From Candidatus Arthromitus sp. SFB-mouse-Japan (GTDB lineage Bacteria > Bacillota > Clostridia > Clostridiales > Clostridiaceae), in NCBI RefSeq assembly GCF_000270205.1, contig NC_015913.1, positions 150,001-182,000 on the forward strand: a stretch of 32,000 nucleotides of DNA, given 5' to 3'. Shown piece by piece: positions 1,770-23,514 of this stretch. How positions within the stretch are numbered: position 1 is the stretch's first letter; the number at the start of each line of letters is the position of its first letter. The notes below the pieces were generated by a model. The model worked only from the letters and a program-made list of their open reading frames with translations. It was not told where the DNA came from and did not search any database. The translations under genes were made by a program, and so were the position numbers.

Positions 1770-1773
1770 GAAA

Positions 1774-6590: not shown

Positions 6591-6695
6591 TTATCTTAAT
6601 GGTGGAAGCTTTTTTAATATTTTGGTATTCCACATTTCCATGATATCGCTGTTATATTTTTTAGCCCACTGCTTTAAAAATTTTACAGCATACAT
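6591..6695 (-). pseudogene. 5'-truncated second copy of the DUF4160 gene (last ~30 codons)
   Basis: The minus-strand translation MYAVKFLKQWAKKYNSDIMEMWNTKILKKLPPLR* aligns with the C-terminus of the intact copy (SLVKEWAEKYKTDLMEMWDSKTLKKLPPLE*). Homology stops near 6690. Confidence 0.7.
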
Positions 6696-6955
6696 GGGAA
6701 CAAGATAACTGGTCAAAGTGGGATAATTTTAAAGAGGATTTAATGAGATTAGATACGGAAAATCATAAGGATTACATATCATCTATAACATTACTCTATA
6801 AAAATGTTTTTCAAAGAGAGCCTGATAATGAAGGTTTGACTTATTGGAATGATCAATTAAATACAGGATTGAGTTTTGGTGATATGTTGAAACAATGGGG
6901 AGAAAGTGAAGAGTTTAGGGAAAAATATATAATTATTAGAAGGTATACCTTTTAG
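6692..6955 (+). pseudogene. 5'-truncated second copy of the endolysin 3' end (linker plus DUF4214-like domain)
   Basis: TWEQDNWSKWDNFKEDL...ITLLYKNVFQREPDNEGLTYWNDQLNTGLSFGDMLKQWGESEEFREKY aligns with endolysin residues TWSENNWDGWDKFKSDL...EKY. By eye the nucleotide identity is about four-fifths. There is no catalytic domain; the track ORF 6743..6955 is the Met-initiated part. Confidence 0.8.
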
Positions 6956-9752: not shown

Positions 9753-11840
9753 ATGGATGTAAAATTAAATTATAAAATTGAAAAGGAATATTTAGATAAT
9801 GTGCTTGTTTATTTAAATGACAAATTGGCTGAGTATATAGAAAATAGACGAGATATTTCTGATTCTATCGTTGAGTATCGGAAGAAATTTATAGAAGAAT
9901 ATAGAGATGATGATGATAAAATAATAGATTATTTTGATCATGAAAATTATAAGAATGAACAAATTTTTATGGTAGTTGAAAGAAAAATTAAAGAGATTCT
10001 TTATTTAAAAAAAACCCCTTATTTTGGAAAGATTGTTATAAGCGAGGATGGTAAGGAAGAGAAATTCTATATAGGATCATATGGGTTTGATGTTGGACTT
10101 GAAGTTCCTCTCATAATCGATTGGAGAGCACCTATAGCTTCCTTATTTTATCAGGGTAAAATTGGAAGTCTTAGTTATACAATACCATCTGGTGAAGATA
10201 TTTGTGTTTCTTTAAATGAGAGAATACAATTTTTGATTAGAGATGGGAAAATAATTTCCATGTTTGATTCAGAGATAGATGTTAAAGATGAGTTTTTAAA
10301 GGAGATGTTATCTTTAAAATCTTCAAATAAATTAAAAACTATCGTTCAAACTATTCAGATCAATCAGGATAAGATAATAAGGGAAGATAGGAGAAAATCA
10401 ATTATAATAAATGGAGTGGCAGGAAGTGGAAAGACATCTATAGCACTCCATAGAATAGCGTATTTACTTTATAATTTTAGAAATTATTTTAAAGATAGGG
10501 TTCTTATATTATGTCCAAATAAGATTTTTATGGAATATATATCATCTGTTCTTCCATCTCTTGGAGAATACGGAGGAGTACATAGTTATACCAGTGAGGA
10601 TTTTATTTATTTGAGTACGGGGGGAGATTTAAATTTTAATTCTTATGAATTACATATGGAGAAGATACTTAATGATAAAGAATATTTAGATGAATTTAAA
10701 TTTAAGGGTAGTTCCAAGGTAAAATGTGAACTGGATAAGTTTATTTTAGATGTTGAGGAAAATATAAATCTTGGAGGAGATATTTATTTTAGAGAGGAAC
10801 TTATTATAGATTATGAGGAATTAAATAGATTATTTTACAAATCATTTAAGAGTCGTGCTATAAGTGTTAGAATAGATTTAATAAGAAAGAGAATATTTGA
10901 TAGAATAAATAAAGTTAGAAATAGTTTTGTTTTTAAAATCAAAAATAAGTATGAGAGCATGAAGGTACATCCTGATATGGAGAATTACTATGATATGTTG
11001 ATGAAAAATGAAATATATGACGTAGTAAGAGAGAGCAGTGATTTAAAATCATCGCTACATTATTTAAAATTAGAGTCATCTTATGAATTATATAGGGAAT
11101 TTTATGAAGATTATTTTTCAAAAGATCTAGGCGATTTAGATTTTGGAGATTTAGTATTAATAAAGTATATTGATATTAAGTTTTATAAGCCTAAAAAAGA
11201 TCGGGAATATAAGCTTGTTGTTATAGATGAGGGGCAAGATTTTTCTTATATGTTTTATGAAGTTATAAAACTGTGTACAGAGGCGTCTTCTTATTTAGTA
11301 GTTGGTGATTTAAATCAAAGTATTATAAAATTTGAAGAAAATTTTATTTATAGCACACGTGTACTTGAAAATAAAGAAGATTTTACAATACTTGATTCGT
11401 ATAGATCAACTAAAAATATAATTGATTATTCTTTGAAATATATAGATAATGATATTTGTGTTAACTCTATAAGAAATGGTGAAGATGTTTTATATTATGA
11501 ATGTGATTATGATGATTTGAGAAGATTATTAATTGAATCCATAAATAATTTAAGATTACAAGATGAGACAAATATAGGAATAATTGTTTTAAACCAAAGT
11601 ATGATAGATAAGGTATACAATATGATAAGATCCAATTTTTATATTAAAGTAATTAATAATGAGGATCACGTTTATAGTGATAATGGAATATTTTTAATGA
11701 CAGTATACTTATCAAAGGGACTTGAATTTGATTCTGTTTTGGTTATTGATTCTGGATTTGAAGATAATATTTTATATATAATGTTAACTAGAGCTATGCA
11801 TAAAGCAATTCATATAAAAATAAAAAATGTAATACCTTAA
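9753..11840 (+). CDS. helD: HelD-type (helicase IV-like) UvrD/Rep superfamily 1 helicase
   Basis: Walker A GVAGSGKTS, Walker B VVIDEGQDF, and the motifs SYRSTKNI and YLSKGLEFDSVLV. The N-terminal TPYFGKIVISEDG..FYIGSYGF..LIIDWRAPIASLFYQG is typical of HelD. Confidence 0.8.
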   Translation: MDVKLNYKIEKEYLDNVLVYLNDKLAEYIENRRDISDSIVEYRKKFIEEYRDDDDKIIDYFDHENYKNEQIFMVVERKIKEILYLKKTPYFGKIVISEDGKEEKFYIGSYGFDVGLEVPLIIDWRAPIASLFYQGKIGSLSYTIPSGEDICVSLNERIQFLIRDGKIISMFDSEIDVKDEFLKEMLSLKSSNKLKTIVQTIQINQDKIIREDRRKSIIINGVAGSGKTSIALHRIAYLLYNFRNYFKDRVLILCPNKIFMEYISSVLPSLGEYGGVHSYTSEDFIYLSTGGDLNFNSYELHMEKILNDKEYLDEFKFKGSSKVKCELDKFILDVEENINLGGDIYFREELIIDYEELNRLFYKSFKSRAISVRIDLIRKRIFDRINKVRNSFVFKIKNKYESMKVHPDMENYYDMLMKNEIYDVVRESSDLKSSLHYLKLESSYELYREFYEDYFSKDLGDLDFGDLVLIKYIDIKFYKPKKDREYKLVVIDEGQDFSYMFYEVIKLCTEASSYLVVGDLNQSIIKFEENFIYSTRVLENKEDFTILDSYRSTKNIIDYSLKYIDNDICVNSIRNGEDVLYYECDYDDLRRLLIESINNLRLQDETNIGIIVLNQSMIDKVYNMIRSNFYIKVINNEDHVYSDNGIFLMTVYLSKGLEFDSVLVIDSGFEDNILYIMLTRAMHKAIHIKIKNVIP

Positions 11841-11855
11841 AGTATTACATTTTTT
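11822..11855. terminator. Bidirectional terminator embedded in the 3' ends of two convergent, overlapping genes
   Basis: AAAAAATGTAATAC (11822-11835) pairs with GTATTACATTTTTT (11842-11855), giving a 14-bp stem with 6-nt loop CTTAAA. The loop holds both stop codons (TAA 11838-11840 on +, TAA complement at 11837-11839 on -). Confidence 0.55.
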
Positions 11856-12823
11856 ATTGTATTATCTATTAAATTAATGAACTTATCTTTAATAATACAG
11901 TCTTCAAAATATTTATTTAATATTAAATGCTTATTTTTCAATTCTGTACATATTAAATTAAATTCTTTAAGATAGTTGTTAAGCTCTTTTTTCATAATTG
12001 ATAGTTCTTTATTTTCAAAATCTATGAGAAATTCTTTATCATATATTTGTATTCCTGGAATTTTATCATTAAACAATATATTATTTGAGATTATGCAAAG
12101 GTTTAAAGTTGGAATTCTTATATGATCTATTGATTTATTTATAGAATTTTTATAGATTTCATAATACAAATTTAAATTAATTGATTCATTTAATATTTCG
12201 TTTATTAAAATATCTTTAAATATAGAAAAATAATCATTTAGTATAAATAGTTTGTTTTCATAGGAATGTAATTGACTTGAAAACGATTTAAAACCATTTA
12301 TTCCAACAGATGAGATTAAAAACTCTGAGTTATTAAGATTATCTTTATGGGGAATATCGTTAAATATATTATTTAACAAATTATCTTTAAAATTGTATAG
12401 TTTATTTGTGTTTAGGTATTTTGAGAGTTCTTTAGATATTAATTTAAATAGGGTATATATTTTATTTATCCATTCTTTTAGATTATGTGATAGAACATAT
12501 TCTATATCTTCTTTTATTTTTATTATGCAATCATTTTTTTTATAGTTAACAAATGAATCTAGTTCTATTAAATGAGTGTCTTTACTAAGATCATTCGAAG
12601 TATTTATCGAGATATTTAAATCAGGAAGAATAATTTTGCAGATATGATCATTTATGAATTTGTCATATAGATATAATTGAGTTGTTTTAATATTGTATAA
12701 TCTATTAGAAATTATATTTAGAGACTTATTACTGATGTAGTTGTTTTGTGATTTTAAATATATATTTTTTTCATAATTGCTGTTTAATTCATTTAAAAAT
12801 AATCTTTTTAGATAGAATGTCAA
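11837..12823 (-). CDS. Hypothetical N/I/K-rich protein (328 aa)
   Basis: Long ORF with a TTG start 8 nt after SD AAAGGAG. No recognisable motif. Confidence 0.5.
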   Translation of the reverse strand: MTFYLKRLFLNELNSNYEKNIYLKSQNNYISNKSLNIISNRLYNIKTTQLYLYDKFINDHICKIILPDLNISINTSNDLSKDTHLIELDSFVNYKKNDCIIKIKEDIEYVLSHNLKEWINKIYTLFKLISKELSKYLNTNKLYNFKDNLLNNIFNDIPHKDNLNNSEFLISSVGINGFKSFSSQLHSYENKLFILNDYFSIFKDILINEILNESINLNLYYEIYKNSINKSIDHIRIPTLNLCIISNNILFNDKIPGIQIYDKEFLIDFENKELSIMKKELNNYLKEFNLICTELKNKHLILNKYFEDCIIKDKFINLIDNTIKNVIL

Positions 12824-12867
12824 GATAAATGCTCCTTTTAAAATTACTTATAATATTATAATAGTAA

Positions 12868-12897
12868 ATAAAAAAAATAAGGTGTTTTAAACACCTT
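12868..12897 (-). terminator. Intrinsic terminator of the CDF transporter gene
   Basis: AAGGTGTTT / AAACACCTT hairpin (12879-12897) overlaps the stop codon. On the minus strand it is followed by a U-run (plus-strand A8 at 12870-12878). Confidence 0.5.
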
Positions 12898-14068
12898 AAT
12901 TAAATGTATTATTTTTAAATATTTTGCAATCGAAGTTGTTATATTTACTTAGGACAATTTTTGTACATTCATCTATGATATCAAAGTTTATTTTATCGTA
13001 AAATTCTTTTTTTAGTTTAATCTCAAAGAAAATAGTATTCTTTCCGTTTTTATTTACTACTCTAAAATCTATAATATCGCTTATTTCATTTATATTTTCC
13101 TTAATAAGTGACCTAATTGTATTATATATTTCGAGTGATTCTTTATTATGAATGTCTATCGGATCTATATGTATAACCAGATGTATCATCATAGTATTTT
13201 CAATATCTTTTTCTATTCTATCTATTAGTGAGTGTACATCTATTAAATTTAAGTTGGAGGGTACTTCTACATGTATAGATGCAAGAGTTTTGTTTGGGCC
13301 ATAATTATGAACGACAAGATCATGTAGCCCCAAAATGTTTTTATAGCTCAATATTTTCTCTTTCAATTCTTTAACTATCTCATCACTAGGAGCTTCTCCA
13401 AGAAGAGAACTCATAGTCTCTTTTATAAGTCCAATTCCAGAATAAATTATAAATAAGGATATAATAACTCCCGCATATCCATCTAATGATATTTTTATAA
13501 AATTTGATAATAAAAGTGACGCACTTAAAATCGTAGTTGTTAAGGCATCGTAAAATGCATCAACTGAAGTTGCCTTAAGAGATTTTGAGTTTATTTTTTT
13601 AGATACTTTAAGGTTTATTATACCAATCCATATTTTTATAAAAATGGATATTATTAGGATTACAAATAGAATTATGCTAAAATTTGTATTTTCTTTGCTC
13701 ATTATCTTTTCTATGGATGATTTGATGAAACTAATTCCAATGAATATTATGAGGAATGAAACTATAAGAGATGCTATGTATTCATATCTACCGTGGCCTT
13801 GAGGATGTTCTTTATCAGCTGGTTTCATAGAAAATTTAAATGCTATTAGGTTTATTATGGATGATGCAGAATCAGATAGGTTGTTAAATGCGTCAGCTGT
13901 TATTGAAATACTTTTTAATACTACTCCTATGAACACTTTTATTAAAAATAAAATTAAATTTAAAACTATGCTTATATAACTGCACAAAAGACCATAAGAG
14001 GAGCGGACTTTTGGATCCTTAACATTTTGATGATTTCTTATAAATTTTTTGGATAAGAAGTTTAACAT
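12896..14068 (-). CDS. Cation diffusion facilitator (CDF) family divalent-metal efflux transporter
   Basis: Six predicted TM helices followed by a cytoplasmic domain, with CDF-type motifs (ITADAFNNLSDS, HPQGHGRYEY). ATG 14068 (SD AGGAAGG 7 nt upstream) is preferred over the track's 14110. Confidence 0.85.
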   Translation of the reverse strand: MLNFLSKKFIRNHQNVKDPKVRSSYGLLCSYISIVLNLILFLIKVFIGVVLKSISITADAFNNLSDSASSIINLIAFKFSMKPADKEHPQGHGRYEYIASLIVSFLIIFIGISFIKSSIEKIMSKENTNFSIILFVILIISIFIKIWIGIINLKVSKKINSKSLKATSVDAFYDALTTTILSASLLLSNFIKISLDGYAGVIISLFIIYSGIGLIKETMSSLLGEAPSDEIVKELKEKILSYKNILGLHDLVVHNYGPNKTLASIHVEVPSNLNLIDVHSLIDRIEKDIENTMMIHLVIHIDPIDIHNKESLEIYNTIRSLIKENINEISDIIDFRVVNKNGKNTIFFEIKLKKEFYDKINFDIIDECTKIVLSKYNNFDCKIFKNNTFN

Positions 14069-14215
14069 ATTAGACCTTCCTAAAATTTTATTTGTATTAA
14101 AGTATAACATTATATAGTTGATGTTTAAACAAAAAATTATTGACTAATATTGTTAGAAACATATAACATTAAATTAAAAATATTTCAGAAGATGTTATTT
14201 TAAGGAGTGTATTGT

Positions 14216-15415
14216 GTGTCTATAGTTGTACAAAAGTATGGAGGAAGTTCCGTAAGTACGATTGATAAAATTAAAAATATAGCAGAGAGTATAATAAGAC
14301 GTGTAGAACAGGGAAATAAGGTTGTTGCTGTTGTTTCTGCTATGGGAGATACTACAGATAATTTACTTTCTATGGCAAAAGAGGTTTGTGATAATCCGAA
14401 TAAAAGAGAGCTGGATTCATTACTTTCAACTGGTGAGGTAGTTTCTAGTTCTCTTTTAAGTATGGCTATAAATTCTTTTGGATATGATGCTATAAGTTTG
14501 AATTCATTTCAAATACAATTGAAGACCTTAGGGGTTCATGGTAAGTCATTAATTGAAGATATTAATCATGAAAAGATACTTGAATATTTAAATCAAGGTA
14601 AGATAGTTATTATAGCAGGGTTTCAAGGTATAAATGACAAAGGAGATGTAACAACTCTTGGACGTGGTGGATCAGATACTACTGCTGTGGCACTTGCTGT
14701 GAAATTAAAATGTGATTGTGAAATTTATACAGATGTTGATGGAATATATAGTGTTGATCCGAGGAATTATAAAGATGCAAAGAAAATTCCAGAGATAGAT
14801 TATGAAGAGATTTTAGAATTGTCTAGCCTTGGAGCTCAGGTAATGCATTCAAGAAGTATTGAACTTGCACAAAAGTATAAAATTAAGATTTATGTAGGAA
14901 AAAGTTTGGGAGATATGAATGGAACTTATATAATGGAGGTTAAAAATATAGATATGGAAAGTAAGCCTATAATAGGAATTGCAACAAGTGATGAAGATAT
15001 TGCATTGAGTATAAAGAATATGAAAAATGATATTAATTTGATTTCATCTATTTTTAATGATGTTGGCAAGAAAAATATAAATGTTGATATGATAAGCCAA
15101 ACAACTCCAATCAATTCTAGTATAAATTTATCATTTACAATTCCTCTTGAGGATTTATTTGAATGTAAGGAAGTTTTAAGTAAGTATGTATTAGAAGATG
15201 ATATAACTATAGATGAGAGTATTTGTAAATTTTCTGTTGTTGGTATTGGCATGAGATCAACATCTGGTGTTGCGGCAAAGTTGTTTAAAATATTTAGTGA
15301 AAACGACATAGAAATAAAAATGATAACGACGTCAGAAATCAGAATAACATGTGCAATAAACAAGAAGGATAAACTTAAAGCAATCGATTTTGTGGCGAAA
15401 GAGTTTAATTTATGA
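14216..15415 (+). CDS. lysC: Aspartate kinase
   Basis: IVVQKYGGSSV, VVSAMGDTTD, GRGGSDTTA and C-terminal ACT-type repeats. GTG 14216 (8 nt after SD AGGAG) is preferred over GTG 14207, which abuts the SD. Confidence 0.9.
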   Translation: MSIVVQKYGGSSVSTIDKIKNIAESIIRRVEQGNKVVAVVSAMGDTTDNLLSMAKEVCDNPNKRELDSLLSTGEVVSSSLLSMAINSFGYDAISLNSFQIQLKTLGVHGKSLIEDINHEKILEYLNQGKIVIIAGFQGINDKGDVTTLGRGGSDTTAVALAVKLKCDCEIYTDVDGIYSVDPRNYKDAKKIPEIDYEEILELSSLGAQVMHSRSIELAQKYKIKIYVGKSLGDMNGTYIMEVKNIDMESKPIIGIATSDEDIALSIKNMKNDINLISSIFNDVGKKNINVDMISQTTPINSSINLSFTIPLEDLFECKEVLSKYVLEDDITIDESICKFSVVGIGMRSTSGVAAKLFKIFSENDIEIKMITTSEIRITCAINKKDKLKAIDFVAKEFNL

Positions 15416-15429
15416 GGTTGGTGTAATAA

Positions 15430-16710
15430 GTGAAGTTACATGGTTCTTTAAATATAGTAGAAAATGATTTATGTATTGGAGACATAAGAATTTCTGATAT
15501 AGCAAATGAGTTTGGAACTCCTTGTTATATAATGGATGAAAATTTGATTCGAGAGAATATAAGTAGATTTAAAAAATCTATGGGAGAAAATAATGTAGTT
15601 GTTTATGCAGGAAAAACTTTTTTAAACACTCATATGGTTAACATATTGAAAGATGAGAAAATAGGTTTAGATGTTGTATCTGAGGGTGAACTTTACATAG
15701 CATTTAAGTGTGGTTTTGATATGAAAAGTGTTATTTTTCATGGTAATAATAAGAGTGATAATGAAATTAGGATGGGAATTGATTTTGGAGTTGGAAGATT
15801 TGTTTGTGATTCGGTACAGGAGCTTATAAGAATTTGTACTATCTCGAGGGAGCTAAATAAAAAAAGTAAGGTATTTTTGAGGATAAATCCGGGGATAGAT
15901 GCACACACACATGAGTATATAAAGACAGCTTGTATAGATTCAAAATTTGGTATATATAAGGATAAATATATGATATCAGACTTATTAAACGAGTATAAAG
16001 ATAATGAAAATTTAGAGATAGTTGGGTTTCATTGTCATATAGGATCTCAGATATTTTCAAAGGATGCATATATAAATGAAGTGGATGAAATATTTGGTTT
16101 AATGAACGAAGTTAAGGAATATGGATTTGAATTAAAAGAGGTAAATTTAGGTGGAGGATTTGGTATTTATTATACAAAAGATGATTCACCTATGGATATC
16201 GAAGATAATATAAAAATTATTTTAGATAGGGTTCATTATAATTCTAATAAGTTTAGCTTAAGTTTACCAAAGGTTTATATAGAACCAGGTAGAAGCATAG
16301 TTGGAAACGCTGGAACGACAATATATAAAGTTGGAGTTATAAAGGAGATTGAAAAAATAAGAAATTATGTATCGGTAGATGGAGGAATGGCAGATAATAT
16401 AAGGACAGCTCTATATAATGCGGATTATGAGTGCATTATTGCAAATAAGGCTTCAGAGAGTAGAAATTATAGAGCGAGAATAAGTGGTAAATGCTGTGAA
16501 TCCGGAGATATTTTAATAAAGGATACTCTTATACAAACTCCTGATAGCGGAGATATTTTAGCTATTTTTTCAACTGGTGCGTATTGTCATTCCATGAGTA
16601 GTAATTATAATAAGATAACCAGAGCACCTATTATATTTTTTCATAATAATAAAGTTGTGCTCAAAACTAGAAGAGAAAGTTTAGATGATTTAACTAGATT
16701 GGATGTTTAA
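15430..16710 (+). CDS. lysA: Diaminopimelate decarboxylase
   Basis: GTG start 14 nt after lysC. Contains the PLP-Lys motif YAGKTF plus HCHIGSQ, GGGFGI, EPGRSIVG and CESGD. Confidence 0.9.
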   Translation: MKLHGSLNIVENDLCIGDIRISDIANEFGTPCYIMDENLIRENISRFKKSMGENNVVVYAGKTFLNTHMVNILKDEKIGLDVVSEGELYIAFKCGFDMKSVIFHGNNKSDNEIRMGIDFGVGRFVCDSVQELIRICTISRELNKKSKVFLRINPGIDAHTHEYIKTACIDSKFGIYKDKYMISDLLNEYKDNENLEIVGFHCHIGSQIFSKDAYINEVDEIFGLMNEVKEYGFELKEVNLGGGFGIYYTKDDSPMDIEDNIKIILDRVHYNSNKFSLSLPKVYIEPGRSIVGNAGTTIYKVGVIKEIEKIRNYVSVDGGMADNIRTALYNADYECIIANKASESRNYRARISGKCCESGDILIKDTLIQTPDSGDILAIFSTGAYCHSMSSNYNKITRAPIIFFHNNKVVLKTRRESLDDLTRLDV

Positions 16711-16777
16711 ATGAATAATTTTGCTATATATCCAAATAATAAAATAAGGTTGTAAAATTATCTTTTAAGGAGAAAAA

Positions 16778-17917
16778 ATGATTAAACTTATTATATTTGA
16801 TGAGGCAAATGAGATATTAAACATAGAGAAATTTTTAAAAGATGATGTAGATATTGTTGGATATTTAAAAGGTGATAAGAATTACTTTGATGATTATATA
16901 AATGGTATAAAGGTTTACGATTTAAACGATTTACATGATATTTTATCTAAAATTGGTTTTGACTATATTTTGGTAAATAGTAGGAGATATAATATTATTT
17001 ATGATAAAATAAGGGAATTTAATATTAATCCAGAGTGTATACTTGATGTATCGTTCTTTTTTTATGATTCTATAATTAGTGAGATTAGAGATAAACTTTC
17101 TTATTGTAAAGAGGAAAAAAGTTTAAATTTTGATATCATGTTTATGGGAAGAAATTATATAAAAGATGAATTTATTTGTGAATATTTTAATGATTACATA
17201 AATATATCCAGCATTTTTTCGGATGCACATTATGATTATCATTTATTATATTATTTGATAAAGAGTAACAAGATAAGTAAGTATACTAGGATAGGAATTT
17301 TTACAAATTACTCTATGATTTATGAAAATATAGATCTAAAGGATGATAAGTATGGTTTTATGAAGATGTTTGAAGATATATTTTCTGTACATAAAGATGT
17401 AAGTGTGAGAAATACTTTTTCATCTTTTTGTTGTAAGAATTTTAAAAGTAATGTAAGCAAGATATTTAAGAGATTTAATTTAGATGATGTTGTATTTGGT
17501 GATAATTTTAATATATCTTGCCATGAAGATGGAAAGATTCAATATGAAACTCAAATAGAAACCATTAATTATAAAGAAGCCAATATTATAGCATTTAAGA
17601 TGAATAAAAATATAATAAATCAAACTCTTAAGATGTTAAAAGATAATGGGATAGATGTATTTTTTATAGTGCCACCTGTACATAAATTATATAGAACATA
17701 TGTAAACAAAACTCTTCAGAAAGAATTTTATATGATTTTAAATAAAAACTTGAATGATAAATTATATGTATTTGATTATTTTGATTTAGAATTTGATGAT
17801 AATTATTTTTCTTCACCATCTAATTTAAATTATAATGGATGTAGAGAATTTTTAAGAATACTCAGTAAGGATATAAACAATAAGTTTTTGGATGTTATAG
17901 CTTGTAATGATTTATAG
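16778..17917 (+). CDS. Hypothetical protein (379 aa), possibly SGNH/DltD-like C-terminal region
   Basis: SD AAGGAG, with no terminator between it and lysA or the next gene. There is only weak resemblance to known folds: an N-terminal Rossmann-like beta-alpha pattern, and a C-terminal FSSPSNLNYNGCREFL reminiscent of the SGNH block V region. Confidence 0.5.
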   Translation: MIKLIIFDEANEILNIEKFLKDDVDIVGYLKGDKNYFDDYINGIKVYDLNDLHDILSKIGFDYILVNSRRYNIIYDKIREFNINPECILDVSFFFYDSIISEIRDKLSYCKEEKSLNFDIMFMGRNYIKDEFICEYFNDYINISSIFSDAHYDYHLLYYLIKSNKISKYTRIGIFTNYSMIYENIDLKDDKYGFMKMFEDIFSVHKDVSVRNTFSSFCCKNFKSNVSKIFKRFNLDDVVFGDNFNISCHEDGKIQYETQIETINYKEANIIAFKMNKNIINQTLKMLKDNGIDVFFIVPPVHKLYRTYVNKTLQKEFYMILNKNLNDKLYVFDYFDLEFDDNYFSSPSNLNYNGCREFLRILSKDINNKFLDVIACNDL

Positions 17918-17938
17918 TTGTTTTGAGAGGAAAAGATT

Positions 17939-19219
17939 ATGAAAAATAAAATTATAGAGAGGTCAATTGATTTATGTAAATTTTTAGATAAGGGTGTTAG
18001 TGTTTATCATGCTACTGAAAATATATGTGATAAATTATTAGATAGGGGATTTAAGGAACTTTTATATAAGGATAGTTGGTGTTTTGAGGGTAAGGGATTT
18101 GTGAAGTTTAACAATTCATCTGTATTTGCTTTTTCATTAAATAAAGAAAGAATAAAAGATGGAATTAAGTTTATATTATCTCATTTAGATTCGCCTTCCC
18201 TTAAGATAAAGACCGGGAGCGATATTTTAAATAGAGATGGTATTTTATATCTAAATGTCGAAGTTTACGGAGGTGCTATATTAAATACTTGGCTTGATAG
18301 GGGTTTATCTATTGCAGGTAGGGTTTTTATAAAGAGTGAGAATTATAAATTTAGTGAGGTTTTAATAGATTTTGAGGATGATATAGCATTTATACCTAAT
18401 TGTCCGATTCATTTAAATAGGGAGATTAATTCGGGATTTTCTTTGAATAGGCAAACTCATATACTTCCTATAGTTCTTACTAATTCTTTGTGTAGCGATG
18501 CATCTTTAAAAGGAATGATATCATCATATTTAGGTGTATCTAAAGATGATGTGCTAGATTTTGATTTATATTTATACGATACTCAAAAGGCTAGTATAAT
18601 TGGTTTTAATAAGGAATTTATACAAAGTAAAAGAATAGATGATTTAGCGATGAGTGAATCAAGTTTATATGCGTTTATGAATTCGTGTGATCATGCAAAT
18701 AAATTTATTTGTATGTTTGATGGTGAAGAGATAGGAAGTTCTATGAGTGAAGGTGCTTATTCTAATACATTATTAAATATATTAGATAGATTATATGAAT
18801 TAATGAATATTACAACTGAGGATAAGCTTATATCGCTTAATAATAGTTTTATAATTTCTGCAGACATGGCCCATGCGTATAATTCAAGTTATTCTGAGAA
18901 GTTTGATGAAAATAATAGGTGTGTTATAAATAAAGGAATAGCTATAAAGAGTAATTCAAATAGGAGTTATGTGACAACAGGAGAGAGTTCATCTTATATA
19001 AAATCCTTATGTAATAAGATAAGAATACCGTATCAGGTATATTATAATAGATCAGATATACAAGGGGGATCAACTCTAGGTCCAATAATTACTAAGTATT
19101 TATCTATAAAAGGTGTTGATTTAGGTAATCCGATGTTTGCTATGCACTCTTGTAGAGAAACTTCAGGGGTTATTGATCACCATTATATTAGTGAATTATT
19201 TATGGAATATTTTAAATGA
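17939..19219 (+). CDS. M18 family aminopeptidase (aspartyl aminopeptidase-like)
   Basis: SHLDSP, VYGGAILNTWLDRGLSIAGRV, RIDDLAMS, FDGEEIGS, SADMAHA, GGSTLGPI, AMHSCRE. Confidence 0.85.
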   Translation: MKNKIIERSIDLCKFLDKGVSVYHATENICDKLLDRGFKELLYKDSWCFEGKGFVKFNNSSVFAFSLNKERIKDGIKFILSHLDSPSLKIKTGSDILNRDGILYLNVEVYGGAILNTWLDRGLSIAGRVFIKSENYKFSEVLIDFEDDIAFIPNCPIHLNREINSGFSLNRQTHILPIVLTNSLCSDASLKGMISSYLGVSKDDVLDFDLYLYDTQKASIIGFNKEFIQSKRIDDLAMSESSLYAFMNSCDHANKFICMFDGEEIGSSMSEGAYSNTLLNILDRLYELMNITTEDKLISLNNSFIISADMAHAYNSSYSEKFDENNRCVINKGIAIKSNSNRSYVTTGESSSYIKSLCNKIRIPYQVYYNRSDIQGGSTLGPIITKYLSIKGVDLGNPMFAMHSCRETSGVIDHHYISELFMEYFK

Positions 19220-19250
19220 AAAGGGTCAAAATTATTGACCCTTTTTTATT
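19219..19250. terminator. Bidirectional terminator between the aminopeptidase and ispF
   Basis: AAAGGGTCAA (19220-19229) pairs with TTGACCCTTT (19235-19244) with a 5-nt loop, flanked by A- and T-runs. It overlaps the last codons of ispF. Confidence 0.65.
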
Positions 19251-19717
19251 TTGTGTAAAAGGCATACAGCTTGGCAAGCGATCCCTTTCTCTTTTCCTGT
19301 AAAACCTAATTTTTCTTCTGTAGTTGCTTTGATTGTTATTTGTGAAATATCTATCCTAAGAACATTACAGAGTGTTTCCCTCATTATATTTATATAAGGA
19401 TTAATTTTAGGCTTTTGGCAAATTATTATACTATCTATATTTGAAATTTCATATTTTTCATTTTCCATAAGTTCGCGAGTTTTTTCGAGCAATTTTAAAG
19501 AACTTATATCTTTAAAGTTATCGCTTGTATCTGGGAAGTATGTTCCTATGTCGTAAAGTCCACATGCTCCTAGTATTGAGTCTATTATAGCGTGTATTAA
19601 ACAATCTCCATCAGAATGGGCTACAAGACCTTTTTCATGGGGTATTTTAACCCCTCCTAAAATAAGATCACGATTATAATCTAATTTATGTACATCATAT
19701 CCAATTCCTATTCTCAA
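19232..19717 (-). CDS. ispF: 2-C-methyl-D-erythritol 2,4-cyclodiphosphate synthase
   Basis: [46 protein letters not shown]; 161 aa. Confidence 0.9.
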
Positions 19718-19730
19718 AATTTAATTCTCC

Positions 19731-20462
19731 TTAAATTCCTATTAATTGAAATAGTTCATTGAGTTCATCATAAGTTAAGTGCCTATACTTTCCAACTTTT
19801 AAATTACCTAACTTTATATTTAAAATACGAGTTCTTTTTAAATATGAAACTTTATAATCAAGTGTTTCACACATACGTCTAATTTGTCTATTAAGACCTT
19901 GAGTTAGTATTATCTTAAAGGAAAAATTATCTATTTTCCATATTTTGCATGGTTTGGTAATTTGATTTAATATTTTTACCCCGGATTTCATCTTTGAGAT
20001 GAAGTCAGGAGTTATTTCCTTATTTACACGAACTAAATATTCTTTTTCATGGTTATTTTCTGATCTTAATATTTTATTTACAATATCTCCATTATTTGTA
20101 AGTAGTATTAACCCATGAGAATTTTTATCTAGTCTACCTATTGGGAAAATTCTTTTAGGGTAATTTATAAAATCTATTATGTTTGATTTGTCTTTTTTAC
20201 AAGTTGTTGAGGTTATACCGAGTGGTTTGTTTAAAGCTAAGTATATGAAATCAACTTGATTTTTAATTTCTTTGAGTGATGAGTTCTCTTTTATGTATAT
20301 TTTGTCAGAGTAGTTAACGAGTGATCCAAGCGTTGCTATAGAATCATTTATAAAAACTTTATTTTTTCTAATAAGATCATCAGCTACTCTTCTCGAACAA
20401 TATCCGTACTTAGATAAAAATTTATTAATTCTTAGCTTTTCTTGATTCGAAATTTTATTCAC
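19731..20462 (-). CDS. rRNA pseudouridine synthase, RsuA/RluB/RluF family
   Basis: N-terminal S4 domain (RINKFLSKYGYCSRRVADDLIRKNKVFIN), catalytic GRLDKNSHGLILLTNNG, EKEYLVRV, RQIRRM. Confidence 0.85.
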   Translation of the reverse strand: MNKISNQEKLRINKFLSKYGYCSRRVADDLIRKNKVFINDSIATLGSLVNYSDKIYIKENSSLKEIKNQVDFIYLALNKPLGITSTTCKKDKSNIIDFINYPKRIFPIGRLDKNSHGLILLTNNGDIVNKILRSENNHEKEYLVRVNKEITPDFISKMKSGVKILNQITKPCKIWKIDNFSFKIILTQGLNRQIRRMCETLDYKVSYLKRTRILNIKLGNLKVGKYRHLTYDELNELFQLIGI

Positions 20463-20510
20463 ATTTAAACTCCTTAAAAAATATTAAGTTCATTTTATCA
20501 TAGAAGATTA

Positions 20511-21446
20511 TTAAGTACTATTTATTTTTACCAAATTTCCGGAGTTATTTATAATGATATTTAAAGGTATATCTTTTAGAGCTTCCCTTAGTTTATTAAA
20601 AGATTTTTTATTTAGGGGTGGACCTATTATGTAAATTTTTACATCTTGACCTGGTTTCAATATGTTATTTTCCATGCCATAATTTATAAATGATGGTATG
20701 GAGTGATCTATTTTTTTCATTATTTGTTTATTTTGTTTGATCATTGTGCGAGCTGATTTTGTTTTAGGTCTATAAGATAAAATATAGCCATTGTGATTCA
20801 TCTTCATATGCATTGTTAAGTTCATTTCCATAATGATATAGTTGTTTGGTATATTAAATATCATAAAATATGTAACTATAATTGAAAATACTGTTAAATA
20901 AATTTTAGATTTTAAGTTAAGTGAAAAGCGTTTTTTGTTTTTGCAGAGGAATAATTCCCCTTTTTTGTATTTGATGTTTTTCTTTATAAAAATATTTAAA
21001 TGTTCATTTAAAATAATAGAGTATCTTGAATTTTTTTCAACAATAACACTTAAACATTCTATGTTTTCATTTATCATTGAAAGTTTAGAATTATTAAATA
21101 AATAAAACGATAAGTGAGAACAACTCTTTTCGGTAAAAAGAATTGTATAGATCTTTATAAGTTCTATATTTCTTTTATATATTTTAATATTATTTTTGTT
21201 AGTTATATTTTCACTTATTATTTTAAATAATATGGAATTATTTATTTTAGATATTTTATTATTTTTTAAGTATATAGATATATTTTTAGAAATTATTAAG
21301 CATTTACATTTTTCAAATGATGATATATTATTTAAATTATTAAAATTTATATTTTTGATGTATATACTTTGACTCAAGAATGTATAAAGATCTTTTAAAA
21401 TTTTATATTTTAGATTATATTTATTTAAATTAATAAGATCATTCAT
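20511..21446 (-). CDS. Single-pass membrane protein with an RsgI-like (anti-sigma-I type) core preceded by a ~125-aa extension
   Basis: Residues ~128-165 (MINENIECLSVIVEKNSRYSIILNEHLNIFIKKNIKYKKGELF) resemble the RsgI N-domain (B. subtilis GIIVEKNKKFVTLLTPDGQFLKAK). A TM helix IYLTVFSIIVTYFMIF follows. The post-TM IIMEMNLTMHMKMNHNGYIL resembles RsgI MTIDINPSVEMALNSDYEVI. Confidence 0.45.
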   Translation of the reverse strand: MNDLINLNKYNLKYKILKDLYTFLSQSIYIKNINFNNLNNISSFEKCKCLIISKNISIYLKNNKISKINNSILFKIISENITNKNNIKIYKRNIELIKIYTILFTEKSCSHLSFYLFNNSKLSMINENIECLSVIVEKNSRYSIILNEHLNIFIKKNIKYKKGELFLCKNKKRFSLNLKSKIYLTVFSIIVTYFMIFNIPNNYIIMEMNLTMHMKMNHNGYILSYRPKTKSARTMIKQNKQIMKKIDHSIPSFINYGMENNILKPGQDVKIYIIGPPLNKKSFNKLREALKDIPLNIIINNSGNLVKINST

Positions 21447-21699
21447 AAAAGTATCCTCTATTGTAAGTTTAATTAGCAGATATTTGAAAATTTTAGTATA
21501 ATTTCATTATTAAGATTTATTTTTCTATGTAAAAGTGTTTTTTATACTATTTAATAATGATGAAAAAGATAAATAAATATTAAAGATTTTGTTTATTATA
21601 ATTAATAGTAGTCAAAAATAGATATACATTTTTAAATATAGGAGTTATATAAATTGTTATTTTAAGTTTTAGAAGGTTTTTTAAAAGGAGGAGAGATAA

Positions 21700-22452
21700 T
21701 TGATAAACAAGAGCTTTAAAATAAATATGGTCATTATTATAGGAAGTATATTGTTATTTTTGGTATTAAGTTATTCAGAGTATATGGTTAGGGCTATAAA
21801 GCCTAATAATGGTAATATTAGTGTAAAGTCTTTAGAAATTAAAGAAAGCTCCGACGGAATGAGTTTTGATTTAAAGTACCCAGAAGTTGAGTATGGAGAT
21901 AATATTGTAAAAGATAAAATAAACGGATCCCTAAGGGCTCAGGTCTTGGAGTTTAAACAGTATATAGAGGACATATATAAAGAGTTTATTTCATCGACTC
22001 CTAAAGAGTTGGTGGATAATTCTATTTCCTCTGAATTTAGAGGAATGTCTGATTTTGAATATGAAATTATAGATAATATTTTATCTATTAGACTTAATTT
22101 AATACAATTTACTGGTGGAGCTCACCCTATGACATATAGAAGGGACTTTAATTTTGATTTAAAAACTGGGAATGTTTTAAAATTTGGAGATCTTTTTAAT
22201 GAAGAAGGAAAGAAAGTATACAAAGATAAAGTTGATTCTATAATTAGGAATGTTATTGAGGAGAATCCTGATAATTATTTTGTAAATGAGTTTAAAGGTA
22301 TTGGAGATAATGTTCAATATTATTTAACTAAAGATAATATTGTGATATTTTATCAATTATATGAATTAGCACCGTACTCTGCAGGTATACCTGAGTTTAA
22401 AATACCTTATAGTGTATTTGGTGGGAATATAAATGTAGACCCTTTAAAGTAG
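21700..22452 (+). CDS. Membrane-anchored DUF4163/DUF3298 domain protein (RsiV/PdaC-type extracellular domain)
   Basis: TTG start after SD AAAGGAGGAG, with an N-terminal TM anchor. Motifs: LKYPEVEY..INGSLRAQV, FTGGAHPMTYRRDFNFDLKTG, PYSAGIPEFKIPY. Confidence 0.75.
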   Translation: MINKSFKINMVIIIGSILLFLVLSYSEYMVRAIKPNNGNISVKSLEIKESSDGMSFDLKYPEVEYGDNIVKDKINGSLRAQVLEFKQYIEDIYKEFISSTPKELVDNSISSEFRGMSDFEYEIIDNILSIRLNLIQFTGGAHPMTYRRDFNFDLKTGNVLKFGDLFNEEGKKVYKDKVDSIIRNVIEENPDNYFVNEFKGIGDNVQYYLTKDNIVIFYQLYELAPYSAGIPEFKIPYSVFGGNINVDPLK

Positions 22453-22502
22453 AAGATTTTCTCTTATTTTTTAGTTTATAATTGAGTGTTAGAGGTGGAA
22501 AA

Positions 22503-22865
22503 ATGAAAGGATTATTTTTAGATTATTCCAAGTGAACAAGTGTAAGAAAGGCCAAGGATTGGCTTGTTAAAAATAATATAGATGTTGAATTTAGATCTCT
22601 TATTTCAAATACACCAACTAAAGATGAAATTTTATCCTGGGTGTTAAAATATAAGGCAGATATAAATAAGTTCTTTAATGTTAATGGTAAGATATTTAAG
22701 GAAAATAATTTGAAAGAGAAGATAAATGAATTATCTTTAGAAGAATGTGCTGATATGTTATCAAAAGAGGGTATGCTCATTAAAAGGCCTATATATATGG
22801 GTGAAGATTTTATATTATTTGGTTTTAAAGAGAAGGAATGGGAGTCGTATATATTAAAAAAATAA
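22503..22865 (+). CDS. ArsC/Spx/YffB-family thioredoxin-fold protein with in-frame TGA (22533-22535) at the active-site Cys position; candidate selenoprotein, otherwise a pseudogene
   Basis: ATG 22503 follows SD GAGGTGG. The reading is MKGLFLDYSK-TGA-TSVRKAKDWLVKNNIDVEF..., continuous in one frame to TAA 22863-22865 (120 codons). The track lists only the tail, 22641..22865. The family N-terminal signature Y....C..(C/S)RKA..WL places the TGA on the conserved Cys. A hairpin with a G-rich loop lies ~20 nt downstream. Confidence 0.6.
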
Positions 22866-22891
22866 AGCTATGTTCTACATAGCTTTATTTT
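22863..22891. terminator. Bidirectional terminator between convergent genes
   Basis: AAAGCTATG (22863-22871) pairs with CATAGCTTT (22877-22885) with a 5-nt loop, then ATTTTTG; an A-run lies upstream. Confidence 0.55.
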
Positions 22892-23514
22892 TGTTTTTTA
22901 GGAGTAATGTCTGAGAATTCAGATATTTTAAAACATTCTCCTGTATTTTCTATTGATAGATTTTGTTTTAATAGTTGACTATATCCGTCTGTATGTAGTG
23001 ATTTATATGTGATTTCATAAGTATAAAGAGTTTTGGAGATCTTTTTAGGTTTAGATATTGTAAAGGATTGTATTATATTTTGATTTTGTTCAATAAACCA
23101 TGCTGGATTGTCTTTGAATAAATTTTTAAGCTGGTTTTTTACATTGTCATTTGAAATTACAAATAATAGAGTACCATTTTTTTCTTTTATTCCATTAGCC
23201 CAAAGAGTTGCAGCTTCATCTCTATTTAATATTTTTACAAAATTTGAAGATTGTTCCCATAGTGTGTTCCTAAAGCTTAAATTTTCAATTATTTTTAAGT
23301 ATATTTTTTTTATGTTCTCAAGTGTGACAAGAGGATCATCTGATAACTCACCATTTTCAATATTATGCTTTTGATCGCTGATTAATTGAGATTCATCAAC
23401 AACTGAAACTTCACAAGAATTTTTGATTTTCTTTTTGTTAGCTAAAGCGTATACTGGGTTTATACTACATAGAGTGTATGCTCCAATTATAAACGATAGA
23501 ATAAGTCTCTTCAT
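22885..23514 (-). CDS. Hypothetical secreted protein (209 aa)
   Basis: N-terminal signal peptide MKRLILSFIIGAYTLCSINPVYALA. No recognisable domain. Confidence 0.6.
   Translation of the reverse strand: MKRLILSFIIGAYTLCSINPVYALANKKKIKNSCEVSVVDESQLISDQKHNIENGELSDDPLVTLENIKKIYLKIIENLSFRNTLWEQSSNFVKILNRDEAATLWANGIKEKNGTLLFVISNDNVKNQLKNLFKDNPAWFIEQNQNIIQSFTISKPKKISKTLYTYEITYKSLHTDGYSQLLKQNLSIENTGECFKISEFSDITPKKQK

What the first reader, a model, noticed from the sequence alone, without database searches (positions are those of the whole stretch)
22503..22865. In-frame UGA at the catalytic-Cys position of an ArsC/Spx-fold protein: candidate selenoprotein hidden by ORF calling
ATG 22503 (SD GAGGTGG) opens MKGLFLDYSK, then TGA at 22533-22535. 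The same frame then continues without another stop to 22865 (TSVRKAKDWLVKNNIDVEFRSLISNTPTKDEILSWVLKYKADINKFF...). The joined product of 120 residues is the normal full length for the ArsC/Spx/YffB family. That family starts with a strand ending in Y....C..(C/S)RKA..WL (B. subtilis Spx: LYTSPSCTSCRKARAWL). Here the sequence reads LDYSK-[TGA]-TSVRKAKDWL, so the stop codon falls exactly on the redox-active Cys, and the second CxxC Cys is Val. Directly 3' of the UGA the RNA can fold. The lower stem is AACAA (22535-22539) with UUGUU (22564-22568). The upper stem is GCCAA (22551-22555) with UUGGC (22559-22563). The apical loop is GGA, about 20 nt after the UGA. As I recall the bacterial SECIS model, it requires a G-containing apical loop roughly 16-37 nt downstream of the UGA, which this matches. 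The short upstream exon-like piece has kept its SD, ATG and frame, which argues against old decay. Many clostridia decode Sec. ArsC-like selenoproteins have, to my recollection, only been predicted computationally and are not functionally characterised. The ORF track splits this gene and offers a spurious antisense ORF instead.
Basis: partly seen in the sequence, partly recalled or inferred. Interest (0 to 1): 0.8.

Follow-up and report, generated by a model that had tools for sequence, protein, structure and literature searches.

The report
Mis-annotated ArsC-like selenoprotein gene in SFB
A small redox-type gene of the mouse gut segmented filamentous bacterium carries a conserved in-frame UGA at its active-site cysteine position and almost certainly encodes selenocysteine; databases annotate it as a truncated protein, but it belongs to a selenoprotein family that was already predicted.

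Summary
ATG 22503, an in-frame TGA at 22533-35 and an open frame to TAA 22865 give a 120-residue ArsC/Spx-fold protein. The TGA falls on the column where about 80 homologues have the first Cys of CxxC.

[quoted passage not shown] TGA is otherwise an ordinary stop there.

All 11 syntenic orthologues whose DNA I read (mouse SFB, chicken Dwaynia, nine other assemblies) keep TGA at this column. Both flanks are under purifying selection while synonymous sites are close to saturation. This excludes a pseudogene, a downstream start and a reassigned code.

A 17-nt hairpin (22549-22565: 7 bp, GGA loop, 20 nt after UGA) is conserved and fits the published bacterial SECIS geometry. Its energy is borderline. 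The nearest Cys-type (CxxV) homologues carry a similar hairpin, so it is not exclusive to UGA forms.

I could not test the Sec machinery directly. A published census lists SelA, SelB and SelD for this strain.

A Sec form of the same subfamily (UxxC, Cloacibacillus porcorum) is already published. This is therefore a new member of a known kind, with a UxxV motif. GenBank and RefSeq annotate it as 74-95-aa fragments. Interest is moderate.

The parts
22492..22498 (+). Shine-Dalgarno GAGGTGG, 4 nt before the start codon
   Evidence: Read directly. Orthologues have a purine-rich SD at the same distance before ATG, TTG or GTG starts.
22503..22865 (+). Full coding sequence of the 120-residue ArsC/Spx-fold (TIGR01617, YusI/3GKX-like) selenoprotein candidate, with Sec at residue 11 and motif U-T-S-V
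   Evidence: The AlphaFold model has pLDDT 93.3, with beta1 at residues 3-7 and residue 11 capping helix 12-23. The best structural matches are 3GKX, 2M46 and 3FZ4, then Spx.
22533..22535 (+). In-frame UGA, proposed selenocysteine codon
   Evidence: TGA sits at this column in all 11 orthologous loci. It aligns with Cys in 78 distant homologues and with U of a published Sec homologue.
22549..22565 (+). Proposed bacterial SECIS core: 7-bp stem (AGGCCAA / UUGGCUU) with apical loop GGA (22556-58). It starts 13 nt after the UGA, and the loop starts 20 nt after it.
   Evidence: It appears in the MFE fold. It is the RNAalifold consensus, with 98.7% of cells paired and only A-U/G-U and C-G/U-G one-sided changes. 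Codon bias favours pairing and a loop G. A caveat is that a similar hairpin occurs in CxxV Cys homologues.
22858..22892 (+). Intrinsic-terminator-like hairpin with a T-run overlapping the stop codon, shared with the convergent gene 22885-23514(-)
   Evidence: One search found 2 terminator-like sites against 0.1 expected from shuffles.
22523..22780 (-). Spurious antisense ORF (85 aa) produced by mechanical ORF listing
   Evidence: The opposite strand carries the conserved ArsC-family frame.

Best explanation
[quoted passage not shown] It encodes a 120-residue thioredoxin-fold protein of the ArsC/Spx superfamily, in the uncharacterised YusI/3GKX-like branch (TIGR01617). Codon 11 is UGA and is read as selenocysteine.

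Proposed mechanism (inferred): SelB carrying GTP and Sec-tRNA(Sec) binds the 17-nt hairpin 13 nt downstream of the UGA (GGA apical loop 20 nt downstream). It delivers Sec in competition with RF2. Without recoding, translation stops after a 10-residue peptide.

Sec sits at the N-terminal cap of helix 1, the position of the nucleophilic Cys of CxxC in relatives. The +3 residue is Val, and the rat-SFB orthologue has no Cys at all. The protein must therefore act as a single-selenol redox protein that is recycled by, or senses, an external thiol or oxidant (inferred). It is not an arsenate reductase and not Spx proper.

Shown here: the gene structure, the conservation of the UGA, the hairpin conservation, and the fold. 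Taken from the literature: SelA, SelB and SelD in this strain. Inferred: Sec insertion itself, SelB binding, and the biochemical role.
For: - **Organism and code.** Proteins of the window are identical to BAK55930.1, SFBM_0155 and SFBM_0164 of SFB-mouse-Japan. TGA ends 4 of 29 long ORFs and TGG is used for Trp, so the code is table 11.
- **UGA conservation.** TGA is at the same column in 11 of 11 syntenic orthologues (window, L001 Ca. Dwaynia gallinarum, L081-L089). In each it lies ten codons (nine in L082) after an SD-preceded ATG, TTG or GTG.
- **Selection.** pN/pS is 0.22 for the upstream codons and 0.29 downstream. Median pairwise pS is 0.59.
- **Cys/Sec alternation.** All 78 distant homologues have TGT or TGC at the column. 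A published Sec protein of the same subfamily aligns U to it at 39% identity.
- **No Cys variant among close relatives.** All cluster members read W (the result of translating TGA with table 4) or are N-truncated.
- **Hairpin conservation.** It is the alignment consensus with 98.7% of cells paired.
- **Synonymous-site bias.** The Ala codon is GCC in 6 and GCT in 5 of 11, never GCA or GCG (background GCA 37%, GCC 6%). The Lys codon giving the first loop G is AAG in 11 of 11 (background 32%). Leu is CTT or CTA in 11 of 11 (background CTN 34%). In 53 low-GC CxxC homologues the same codons are mostly GCA, AAA and TTA, and the equivalent segment folds at -0.7 against -6.1 kcal/mol.
- **SECIS geometry.** It fits the published bSECIS consensus: loop 3-9 nt, stem 4-16 bp, G then G/U at the start of the loop, and 16-37 nt spacing (PMC13188914).
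- **Machinery.** SFB-mouse-Japan and SFB-rat-Yit are listed as SelD+, SelA+, SelB+ and YbbB+ (PMC5029168 Table S1).
- **Fold.** The first ten codons encode strand beta1, which the fold needs.
Against: - No direct evidence of selenium incorporation exists.
- I could not inspect selA, selB, selC or selD of this genome. The SelD search returned 8000 hits with none attributable to SFB, and there is no tRNA gene in the window. The machinery therefore rests on one paper's table, and tRNA-Sec is not documented there.
- The hairpin shows no compensatory double changes, because its 3' arm is fixed by Asp-Trp-Leu.
- The hairpin's energy is -7.1 kcal/mol alone and -9.1 over 60 nt in the window, but only -5.0 to -8.8 in orthologues. 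That is around or above the -7.5 cut-off of the consensus model.
- The 66-nt fold is not unusual against shuffles (z = -0.79).
- The nearest Cys-type homologues (CSTV; L090, L091 and several metagenome loci) have the same or a similar hairpin. The hairpin alone therefore does not discriminate Sec from Cys forms.
- No Rfam family matches.
Confidence: 0.85

Rival explanations
1. The gene is a decaying pseudogene: a nonsense mutation hit the Cys codon (TGT or TGC to TGA) of an ArsC-family gene.
For: A single transversion turns TGT or TGC into TGA. SFB genomes are reduced. Public annotation treats the locus as a fragment.
Against: The same TGA is present in 11 of 11 orthologues from different hosts at near-saturated synonymous divergence. 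Purifying selection acts on both sides (pN/pS 0.22 and 0.29). SD and start codons are conserved. No relative at 68% identity or more has Cys.
Confidence: 0.02
2. UGA is a true stop. The functional protein starts downstream, as in GenBank and RefSeq (74-95 aa), and the 10-codon ORF is a leader peptide or has no function.
For: Annotation pipelines call downstream starts (P0215 74 aa, P0216 95 aa, P0015, P0016, P0017, P0020).
Against: The called starts differ between genomes (69, 74, 90, 93 and 95 aa), so there is no conserved start or SD after the TGA. A downstream start would remove strand beta1 and the active-site helix cap. The upstream codons LFLDY(S/T/A)(K/R) match the family's beta1 sequence (LFIEYPK-C) and evolve like coding sequence in the same frame.
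Confidence: 0.04
3. The UGA is read through without selenium, by near-cognate tRNA (Trp, Cys or Arg) or by a reassigned code (table 4 or 25).
For: Metagenome gene callers translated these contigs with table 4 and obtained an uninterrupted 120-aa protein with W (P0217 on 108 contigs). Low-level UGA read-through by tRNA-Trp is known in low-GC Firmicutes (general knowledge).
Against: TGA terminates 4 of 29 long ORFs in the window, and reading through them adds only 6-12 codons. Trp is encoded by TGG. Trp at the nucleophile position of a redox fold, where every homologue has Cys (or Sec in a published one), is implausible. The strain is reported to have the Sec trait.
Confidence: 0.05
4. The conserved hairpin is not a SECIS. 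It is either a by-product of the amino-acid motif K-A-K-D-W-L or an RNA element with another role, and recoding depends on something else.
For: CxxV-type Cys homologues carry the same hairpin or a 5-7-bp version of it (L090 is identical; L091 and L092-L154 are similar). There are no compensatory changes. The energy is borderline. The minus strand of the hairpin scores as terminator-like.
Against: Fifty-three low-GC CxxC homologues with the same K-A-K-x-W-L residues do not form it. In the Sec clade the loop G (AAG in 11 of 11) and the pairing codons are fixed, while neighbouring synonymous sites vary. Remnant SECIS-like hairpins after Cys codons are a described phenomenon (PMC1794560). The metagenome CxxV sample was selected with a pattern that forces the 3' arm. 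No other conserved structure follows the UGA.
Confidence: 0.12

Closest known systems
'Arsenate reductase' selenoprotein (U-T-T-C) of Cloacibacillus porcorum CL-84, listed in the deep-Sep selenoprotein set (PMC12013277, suppl. file 1). It probably corresponds to the family 'Arsenate reductase 2, UxxC' of Peng et al. 2016 Table S3; that correspondence is my inference.
   Same: Same YusI/3GKX-like branch of the ArsC/Spx superfamily (KKFFNxxG, DGMLxKRP and GFKExEW motifs). It is 39% identical over 110 residues, with Sec in the same column. Both are computational predictions with unknown function.
   Different: The SFB protein has Val instead of the resolving Cys (UxxV, not UxxC). It comes from Clostridia (the SFB/Dwaynia clade), not Synergistota. 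It forms its own orthologous group with conserved synteny.
NCBIfam NF041106 'ArsC family (seleno)protein' (arsenate reductase-like, UxxC) and TIGR00014-type ArsC selenoproteins (UxxS)
   Same: ArsC-superfamily fold with Sec at the N-terminal nucleophile position. Both are listed as predicted prokaryotic selenoproteins (PMC13188914; PMC1794560).
   Different: The window protein scores 16.6 bits against a cut-off of 85 for NF041106, and 20.2 bits against 106 for TIGR00014. These are different branches. By my own comparison with the R773 ArsC sequence (from memory, no tool run), Arg60 corresponds to Asn in FFN here, so the arsenate-binding Arg triad appears incomplete.
Uncharacterised Cys-type homologues: B. 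fragilis 3GKX, S. aureus SACOL0876 (2M46), S. mutans 3FZ4, and the B. subtilis YusI type (the YusI assignment is from memory)
   Same: These are the closest solved structures (E = 7e-27, TM 0.83-0.90, 31-39% identity), with the same length and architecture.
   Different: They carry CxxC, while the SFB protein carries U-x-x-V. None has an assigned function, so they give no functional transfer.
Spx / MgsR redox-sensing RNA-polymerase-binding regulators
   Same: Same fold (TM 0.83-0.87). The redox residue sits at the same helix cap. Both share the TIGR01617 subfamily label.
   Different: Identity is only 22%. Scores for the Spx models are 47-60 bits against cut-offs of 123-159. There is no CxxC and no C-terminal extension. 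The protein fails Spx membership.
E. coli fdhF-type bacterial SECIS and the consensus bSECIS model
   Same: A hairpin inside the coding sequence just 3' of UGA, with a small apical loop beginning with G-G and 20-nt spacing (PMC13188914 Fig. 2). From memory, the E. coli minimal SECIS is also a 17-nt stem-loop 11 nt after UGA (Liu et al. 1998).
   Different: There is no bulged U, the stem is AU-rich and weaker, there is no sequence similarity, and binding by SFB SelB is untested.

Membership tests
Bacterial selenoprotein gene (UGA recoded to Sec) | In-frame UGA that aligns with Cys (or Sec) in homologues | tested here: met
   TGA 22533-35 against TGT/TGC in 78 homologues, and against U in a published Sec homologue.
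Bacterial selenoprotein gene (UGA recoded to Sec) | UGA and both flanking coding parts are conserved among orthologues | tested here: met
   TGA in 11 of 11 orthologues; pN/pS 0.22 upstream and 0.29 downstream; median pS 0.59. No Cys variant in the clusters.
Bacterial selenoprotein gene (UGA recoded to Sec) | bSECIS hairpin: loop 3-9 nt, upper stem 4-16 bp, G in the first two loop positions, 16-37 nt from UGA, MFE <= -7.5 kcal/mol | tested here: inconclusive
   The geometry is met: 3-nt GGA loop, 7 bp, 20 nt spacing, conserved. The energy is -7.1 kcal/mol for the hairpin and -9.1 over 60 nt in the window, but -5.0 to -8.8 in orthologues. A similar hairpin occurs in CxxV Cys homologues.
Bacterial selenoprotein gene (UGA recoded to Sec) | Genome encodes selA, selB, selD and tRNA-Sec | not testable with these tools
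   None of these lies in the window. The SelD search was uninformative. From the literature, SFB-mouse-Japan is SelD+, SelA+ and SelB+ (PMC5029168 Table S1). tRNA-Sec is not documented there.
Bacterial selenoprotein gene (UGA recoded to Sec) | Selenium demonstrated in the protein | not testable with these tools
   This needs 75Se labelling or mass spectrometry.
ArsC/Spx/MgsR superfamily (Pfam PF03960) | Profile match above the gathering score and the corresponding fold | tested here: met
   50.1 bits against a cut-off of 24. The model has pLDDT 93.3 and TM 0.88 to 3GKX.
TIGR01617 arsC_related (Spx/MgsR family) subfamily | Score above the curated cut-off | tested here: met
   87.9 bits against 75.05 (with C substituted for U).
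Spx transcriptional regulator (NF002459, NF009210, NF009885) | Score above the cut-off, and a CxxC redox switch | tested here: not met
   60.3, 54.3 and 46.8 bits against cut-offs of 123, 159 and 152. The motif is U-T-S-V.
Glutaredoxin-dependent arsenate reductase ArsC (TIGR00014) | Score above the cut-off (the Arg triad around the catalytic Cys was not tested with a tool) | tested here: not met
   20.2 bits against 106.05. E. coli ArsC structures match at only 14% identity and TM 0.73.
NF041106 ArsC family (seleno)protein | Score above the cut-off, and a UxxC motif | tested here: not met
   16.6 bits against 85. The motif is UxxV.
'Arsenate reductase' UxxC selenoprotein family (Cloacibacillus type) | Same subfamily with Sec at the same column, and a resolving Cys at +3 | tested here: inconclusive
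   39% identity with U aligned: met. The Cys at +3 is replaced by Val in all 11 orthologues: not met. No formal family model was available to score.

The most novel reading that the evidence does not exclude
The Peng et al. census counted a single known selenoprotein in each SFB genome. That one may be SelD: the 2006 study states that Sec-decoding organisms lacking FdhA have Sec-SelD, usually together with the selenouridine trait, and SFB shows that pattern. If so, this UxxV protein is a previously uncounted SFB selenoprotein and the only one acting outside selenium metabolism itself. It would then be part of the reason a 1.6-Mb reduced genome keeps the whole Sec machinery. It would also be a single-selenol member of the Spx/MgsR-labelled subfamily, possibly a selenium-based redox sensor or regulator at the oxygen-exposed epithelial surface rather than an enzyme.
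Probability: 0.1. Interest if true: 0.75.

Novelty: new member of a known kind. Interest (0 to 1): 0.4.

Why it matters
SFB are the model Th17-inducing gut commensals and have strongly reduced genomes. A conserved selenoprotein that is truncated or mislabelled in every public SFB annotation ("Arsenate reductase" 74 aa, "ArsC/Spx/MgsR family protein" 95 aa, "hypothetical protein") is a concrete annotation error worth fixing.

The gene gives SFB a selenium-dependent redox protein conserved across mouse, rat, turkey and chicken lineages. It links host selenium supply to the biology of this bacterium.

It also adds a UxxV (single-selenol) variant and a Clostridia lineage to a selenoprotein family known only from prediction. 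It supplies a compact 17-nt candidate SECIS from an AT-rich genome. The closely related CxxV Cys forms carry the same hairpin, which is useful material for studying Cys/Sec interconversion. It does not reveal a new mechanism.

Tried and rejected
- **Code 4 or 25.** Rejected: TGA ends 4 of 29 ORFs and TGG encodes Trp.
Rejected as a conserved element: it is found in the window only.
- **Rfam.** No SECIS or other family matches at 22400-22700; the only hit is a chance lncRNA match at E = 8.
- **Direct check of Sec machinery.** There is no tRNA in the window and no sel genes among the window ORFs. A SelD search with a Treponema query returned 8000 hits and listed 120, none attributable to SFB. The Secmarker supplements do not mention Arthromitus. 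Full-text searches for SFB plus selenocysteine found no genome paper.
- **Metagenome pattern scan.** It returned only Cys-type CxxV relatives and no further Sec-clade loci. That sample is biased by the pattern.
- **Cys81 as a clade-specific resolving Cys.** It is invariant in the 11 loci. I rejected it because the rat-SFB orthologue P0247 has Arg there and no Cys at all.
- **Which protein is the "1 known selenoprotein" of SFB in Peng et al. 2016.** This could not be determined, because the tables give only counts.
- **Structure prediction with Cys at residue 11.** I used the W-reading homologue P0002 instead.

Full report
**Observation.** GAGGTGG lies at 22492-98 and ATG at 22503. Ten codons follow (MKGLFLDYSK), then TGA at 22533-35. 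The same frame stays open for 109 more codons to TAA at 22863-65. With Cys substituted at the TGA, the 120-residue product matches Pfam ArsC (PF03960, 50.1 bits, cut-off 24) and NCBIfam TIGR01617 "arsC_related / Spx-MgsR family" (87.9 bits, cut-off 75.05). It fails the specific models for Spx (47-60 bits against 123-159), arsenate reductase TIGR00014 (20 against 106) and the known "ArsC family (seleno)protein" NF041106 (16.6 against 85). A terminator-like hairpin with a T-run overlaps the stop codon (22858-22892). This is the only TGA-interrupted ORF of the window that lies in otherwise unassigned DNA.

[quoted passage not shown] The window has 27% G+C. TGA ends 4 of 29 long ORFs, and reading through them adds only 6-12 codons. 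Trp is encoded by TGG. The code is therefore table 11, and this UGA is an exception rather than a reassignment.

**Homologues and the Cys/Sec column.** A protein search gave 23 relatives.
- Those at 68-98% identity either read "W" at the column or start downstream of it. The W readings come from metagenome gene callers. The truncated versions come from NCBI annotation, for example "ArsC/Spx/MgsR family protein" of SFB-rat-Yit.
- I fetched the DNA of ten such loci: Ca. Dwaynia gallinarum, two NCBI assemblies and seven Logan or ENA contigs. All share the synteny PdaC/DUF3298 gene, ArsC-like gene, unknown(-), DUF1540(-), YitT.
- All ten, like the window, have TGA at exactly this column. An SD-preceded ATG, TTG or GTG lies ten codons upstream (nine in L082). 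The "W" is therefore an artefact of translating with table 4.
- Members of the 90% clusters (mouse, rat, turkey, chicken and metagenomes) all read W or are truncated. None has Cys.
- In contrast, 78 more distant homologues (37-50% identity) from the genome collection have TGT or TGC there, nearly all in a C-(S/T/G)-(T/S)-C motif.

**Selection.** Among the 11 orthologues, pN/pS is 0.22 for the codons between the start and the TGA, and 0.29 downstream. Median pairwise pS is 0.59, which is close to saturation. The short upstream piece, the TGA and the long downstream piece have been kept together as one coding unit over substantial divergence. This excludes a recent nonsense mutation. It also argues against a downstream start: the starts chosen by annotators differ between genomes (69-95 aa) and would remove part of the fold. 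An AlphaFold model (pLDDT 93.3) places residues 3-7 in strand beta1 and residue 11 at the cap of helix 12-23. That is the classical nucleophile position of thioredoxin-fold redox proteins. The best structural matches are the uncharacterised 3GKX, 2M46 and 3FZ4 (TM 0.83-0.90), followed by Spx, YffB and ArsC.

**The hairpin.**
- It is the only consensus structure RNAalifold finds after the UGA. It is paired in 98.7% of cells across the 11 sequences. The only changes are two one-sided, pair-preserving ones (A-U/G-U and C-G/U-G). There are no compensatory doubles. None are expected, because the 3' arm is fixed by Asp-Trp-Leu.
- The informative signal is at synonymous sites. The Ala codon is GCC (6) or GCT (5), never GCA or GCG, although GCA makes up 37% and GCC 6% of Ala codons in the window. 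The Lys codon that supplies the first loop base is AAG in 11 of 11 (background 32%). Leu is CTT or CTA in 11 of 11 (background CTN 34%, TTA 55%). Neighbouring Val, Arg, Thr and Ser codons vary freely.
- In 53 low-GC CxxC homologues with the same K-A-K-x-W-L residues, the codons are mostly GCA, AAA and TTA. The equivalent 19 nt fold at -0.7 kcal/mol on average, against -6.1 in the Sec clade.
- Only 14 sites in the 32-kb window carry a 19-nt hairpin of -7 kcal/mol or better.
- The geometry fits the published bacterial SECIS consensus: loop 3-9 nt, stem 4-16 bp, G followed by G/U at the start of the loop, and 16-37 nt from the UGA (here 20) (PMC13188914 Fig. 2).

**Caveats on the hairpin.**
- The consensus energy cut-off of -7.5 kcal/mol is reached only with non-conserved flanking pairs in the window (-9.1). 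It is missed by the GCT-type orthologues (-5.0).
- The 66-nt fold is unremarkable against shuffles (z = -0.79).
- No Rfam family matches.
- Most importantly, the two nearest Cys-type homologues have C-S-T-V, so they also lack the second Cys, at 41-45% identity. Both carry the hairpin. L090 has the identical AAAGCTAAGGATTGGCTT after a TGC codon. L091 has a 6-bp version.
- A metagenome scan recovered further CxxV Cys forms with 4-7-bp versions. That sample is biased, because my pattern fixed the 3' arm.
- The hairpin is therefore shared by the UxxV/CxxV branch and is not exclusive to UGA forms. That fits either remnant SECIS elements after Sec-to-Cys conversion, a phenomenon described in PMC1794560, or a pre-existing structure that was exapted. 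What is specific to the Sec clade (plus L090) is the invariant G-G at the start of the loop.

**Sec machinery.** I could not inspect the rest of the genome.
- There is no tRNA gene in the window.
- There are no sel genes among its ORFs.
- A SelD search was swamped by other hits.
- The literature fills part of the gap. Peng et al. 2016 (PMC5029168, Table S1) list both SFB-mouse-Japan, which is this strain, and SFB-rat-Yit as SelD+, SelA+, SelB+ and YbbB+. Table S2 credits each with one known selenoprotein. The family is not named.
- Zhang et al. [quoted passage not shown] SFB shows that pattern, so the counted protein may be SelD rather than this gene. This is unresolved.

**What it most likely is and does.** It is a genuine selenoprotein gene. 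UGA-11 is decoded as Sec by SelB and Sec-tRNA(Sec), recruited by the 17-nt hairpin. Without recoding, only a decapeptide is made. The product is a YusI/3GKX-like member of the ArsC/Spx superfamily with a U-T-S-V motif. The rat-SFB orthologue has no cysteine anywhere. That rules out my interim idea that Cys81 acts as a resolving residue, and it implies a single-selenol mechanism that depends on an external thiol or oxidant. The protein fails membership of ArsC proper and of Spx. Its biochemical function is unknown, as it is for all its closest Cys homologues. Confidence that the UGA encodes Sec is about 0.85. Confidence that the hairpin is the SECIS is somewhat lower.

**Comparison with what is known, and novelty.**
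- ArsC-like selenoproteins have been listed since 2006 (PMC1794560).
- Peng et al. list three "arsenate reductase" Sec families: UxxC, UxxC-like and UxxS.
- NCBIfam has NF041106.
- The deep-Sep selenoprotein set contains an "Arsenate reductase" from Cloacibacillus porcorum with U-T-T-C. It is 39% identical to the SFB protein, belongs to the same subfamily, and has Sec in the same column.
- The finding is therefore a new member of a known kind. Its differences are a UxxV motif, a Clostridia/SFB lineage, and systematic mis-annotation in public records: "Arsenate reductase" 74 aa, "ArsC/Spx/MgsR family protein" 95 aa, and "hypothetical protein".
- Interest is moderate at 0.4. It is a solid annotation correction in an immunologically important organism and a useful Cys/Sec evolutionary case, but not a new mechanism.

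Noticed in passing
window 329-5748: The left end of the window is the tail and lysis end of a prophage. It holds a Mu Gp48-like baseplate protein (329-1018), a tail-collar fibre protein (2583-4328), a holin (4507-4953) and an N-acetylmuramoyl-L-alanine amidase with a DUF4214 C-terminal domain (5098-5748).
   Followed up: partly
window 5578-5739 / 6767-6928 and 5795-5883 / 6591-6679: There are two diverged direct repeats (162 nt at 81% identity, 89 nt at 79%) whose order is swapped between the two copies. They duplicate the DUF4214 end of the amidase as an orphan 70-aa ORF (6743-6955) and the tail of the minus-strand gene 5795-6043 as a 41-aa ORF (6591-6716). They bracket an HTH (6049-6291, -) / DUF2442 (6293-6550, -) gene pair. 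This looks like a rearrangement scar at the prophage end.
   Followed up: partly
L090 6001-6354; L091 533-886; L092, L097, L137, L154 and others: A CxxV (C-S/T-T-V) Cys-type branch of the same family exists in diverse low- to mid-GC organisms. It carries the same hairpin-forming codons after the Cys codon, and L090 is identical to the SFB hairpin. It could be a remnant SECIS or a pre-adaptation. The direction of the Cys/Sec conversion is unresolved.
   Followed up: partly
protein clusters of P0002, P0006, P0015: Metagenome gene callers translated SFB-type contigs with table 4, giving full-length proteins with Trp at the Sec site (P0217 on 108 contigs, P0231 on 79). NCBI records give 74-95-aa fragments named "Arsenate reductase", "ArsC/Spx/MgsR family protein" or "hypothetical protein". 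Low-GC contigs in these collections may hide other selenoproteins behind a false W.
   Followed up: no
window 7376-8908: A 510-aa ORF that is very rich in Asn, Lys, Glu and Ser and has low complexity. It has no Pfam match and lies directly after the prophage and repeat region.
   Followed up: no
window 22551-22563 (- strand): The reverse complement of the SECIS-like hairpin is scored as terminator-like on the minus strand (GCCAATCCTTGGC followed by CTTTCTT). It is probably incidental. The convergent gene 22885-23514(-) already ends at the bidirectional terminator 22858-22892.
   Followed up: no
window 11837-22452 compared with L081 and L082: Gene order around the selenoprotein gene is conserved between SFB and two other assemblies (GCA_054906415.1, GCA_964271565.1). 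The order is cation efflux(-), aspartokinase, DAP decarboxylase, unknown, M18 aminopeptidase, IspF(-), pseudouridine synthase(-), unknown(-), PdaC/DUF3298. L081 has a resolvase gene inserted between DUF1540 and YitT.
   Followed up: no
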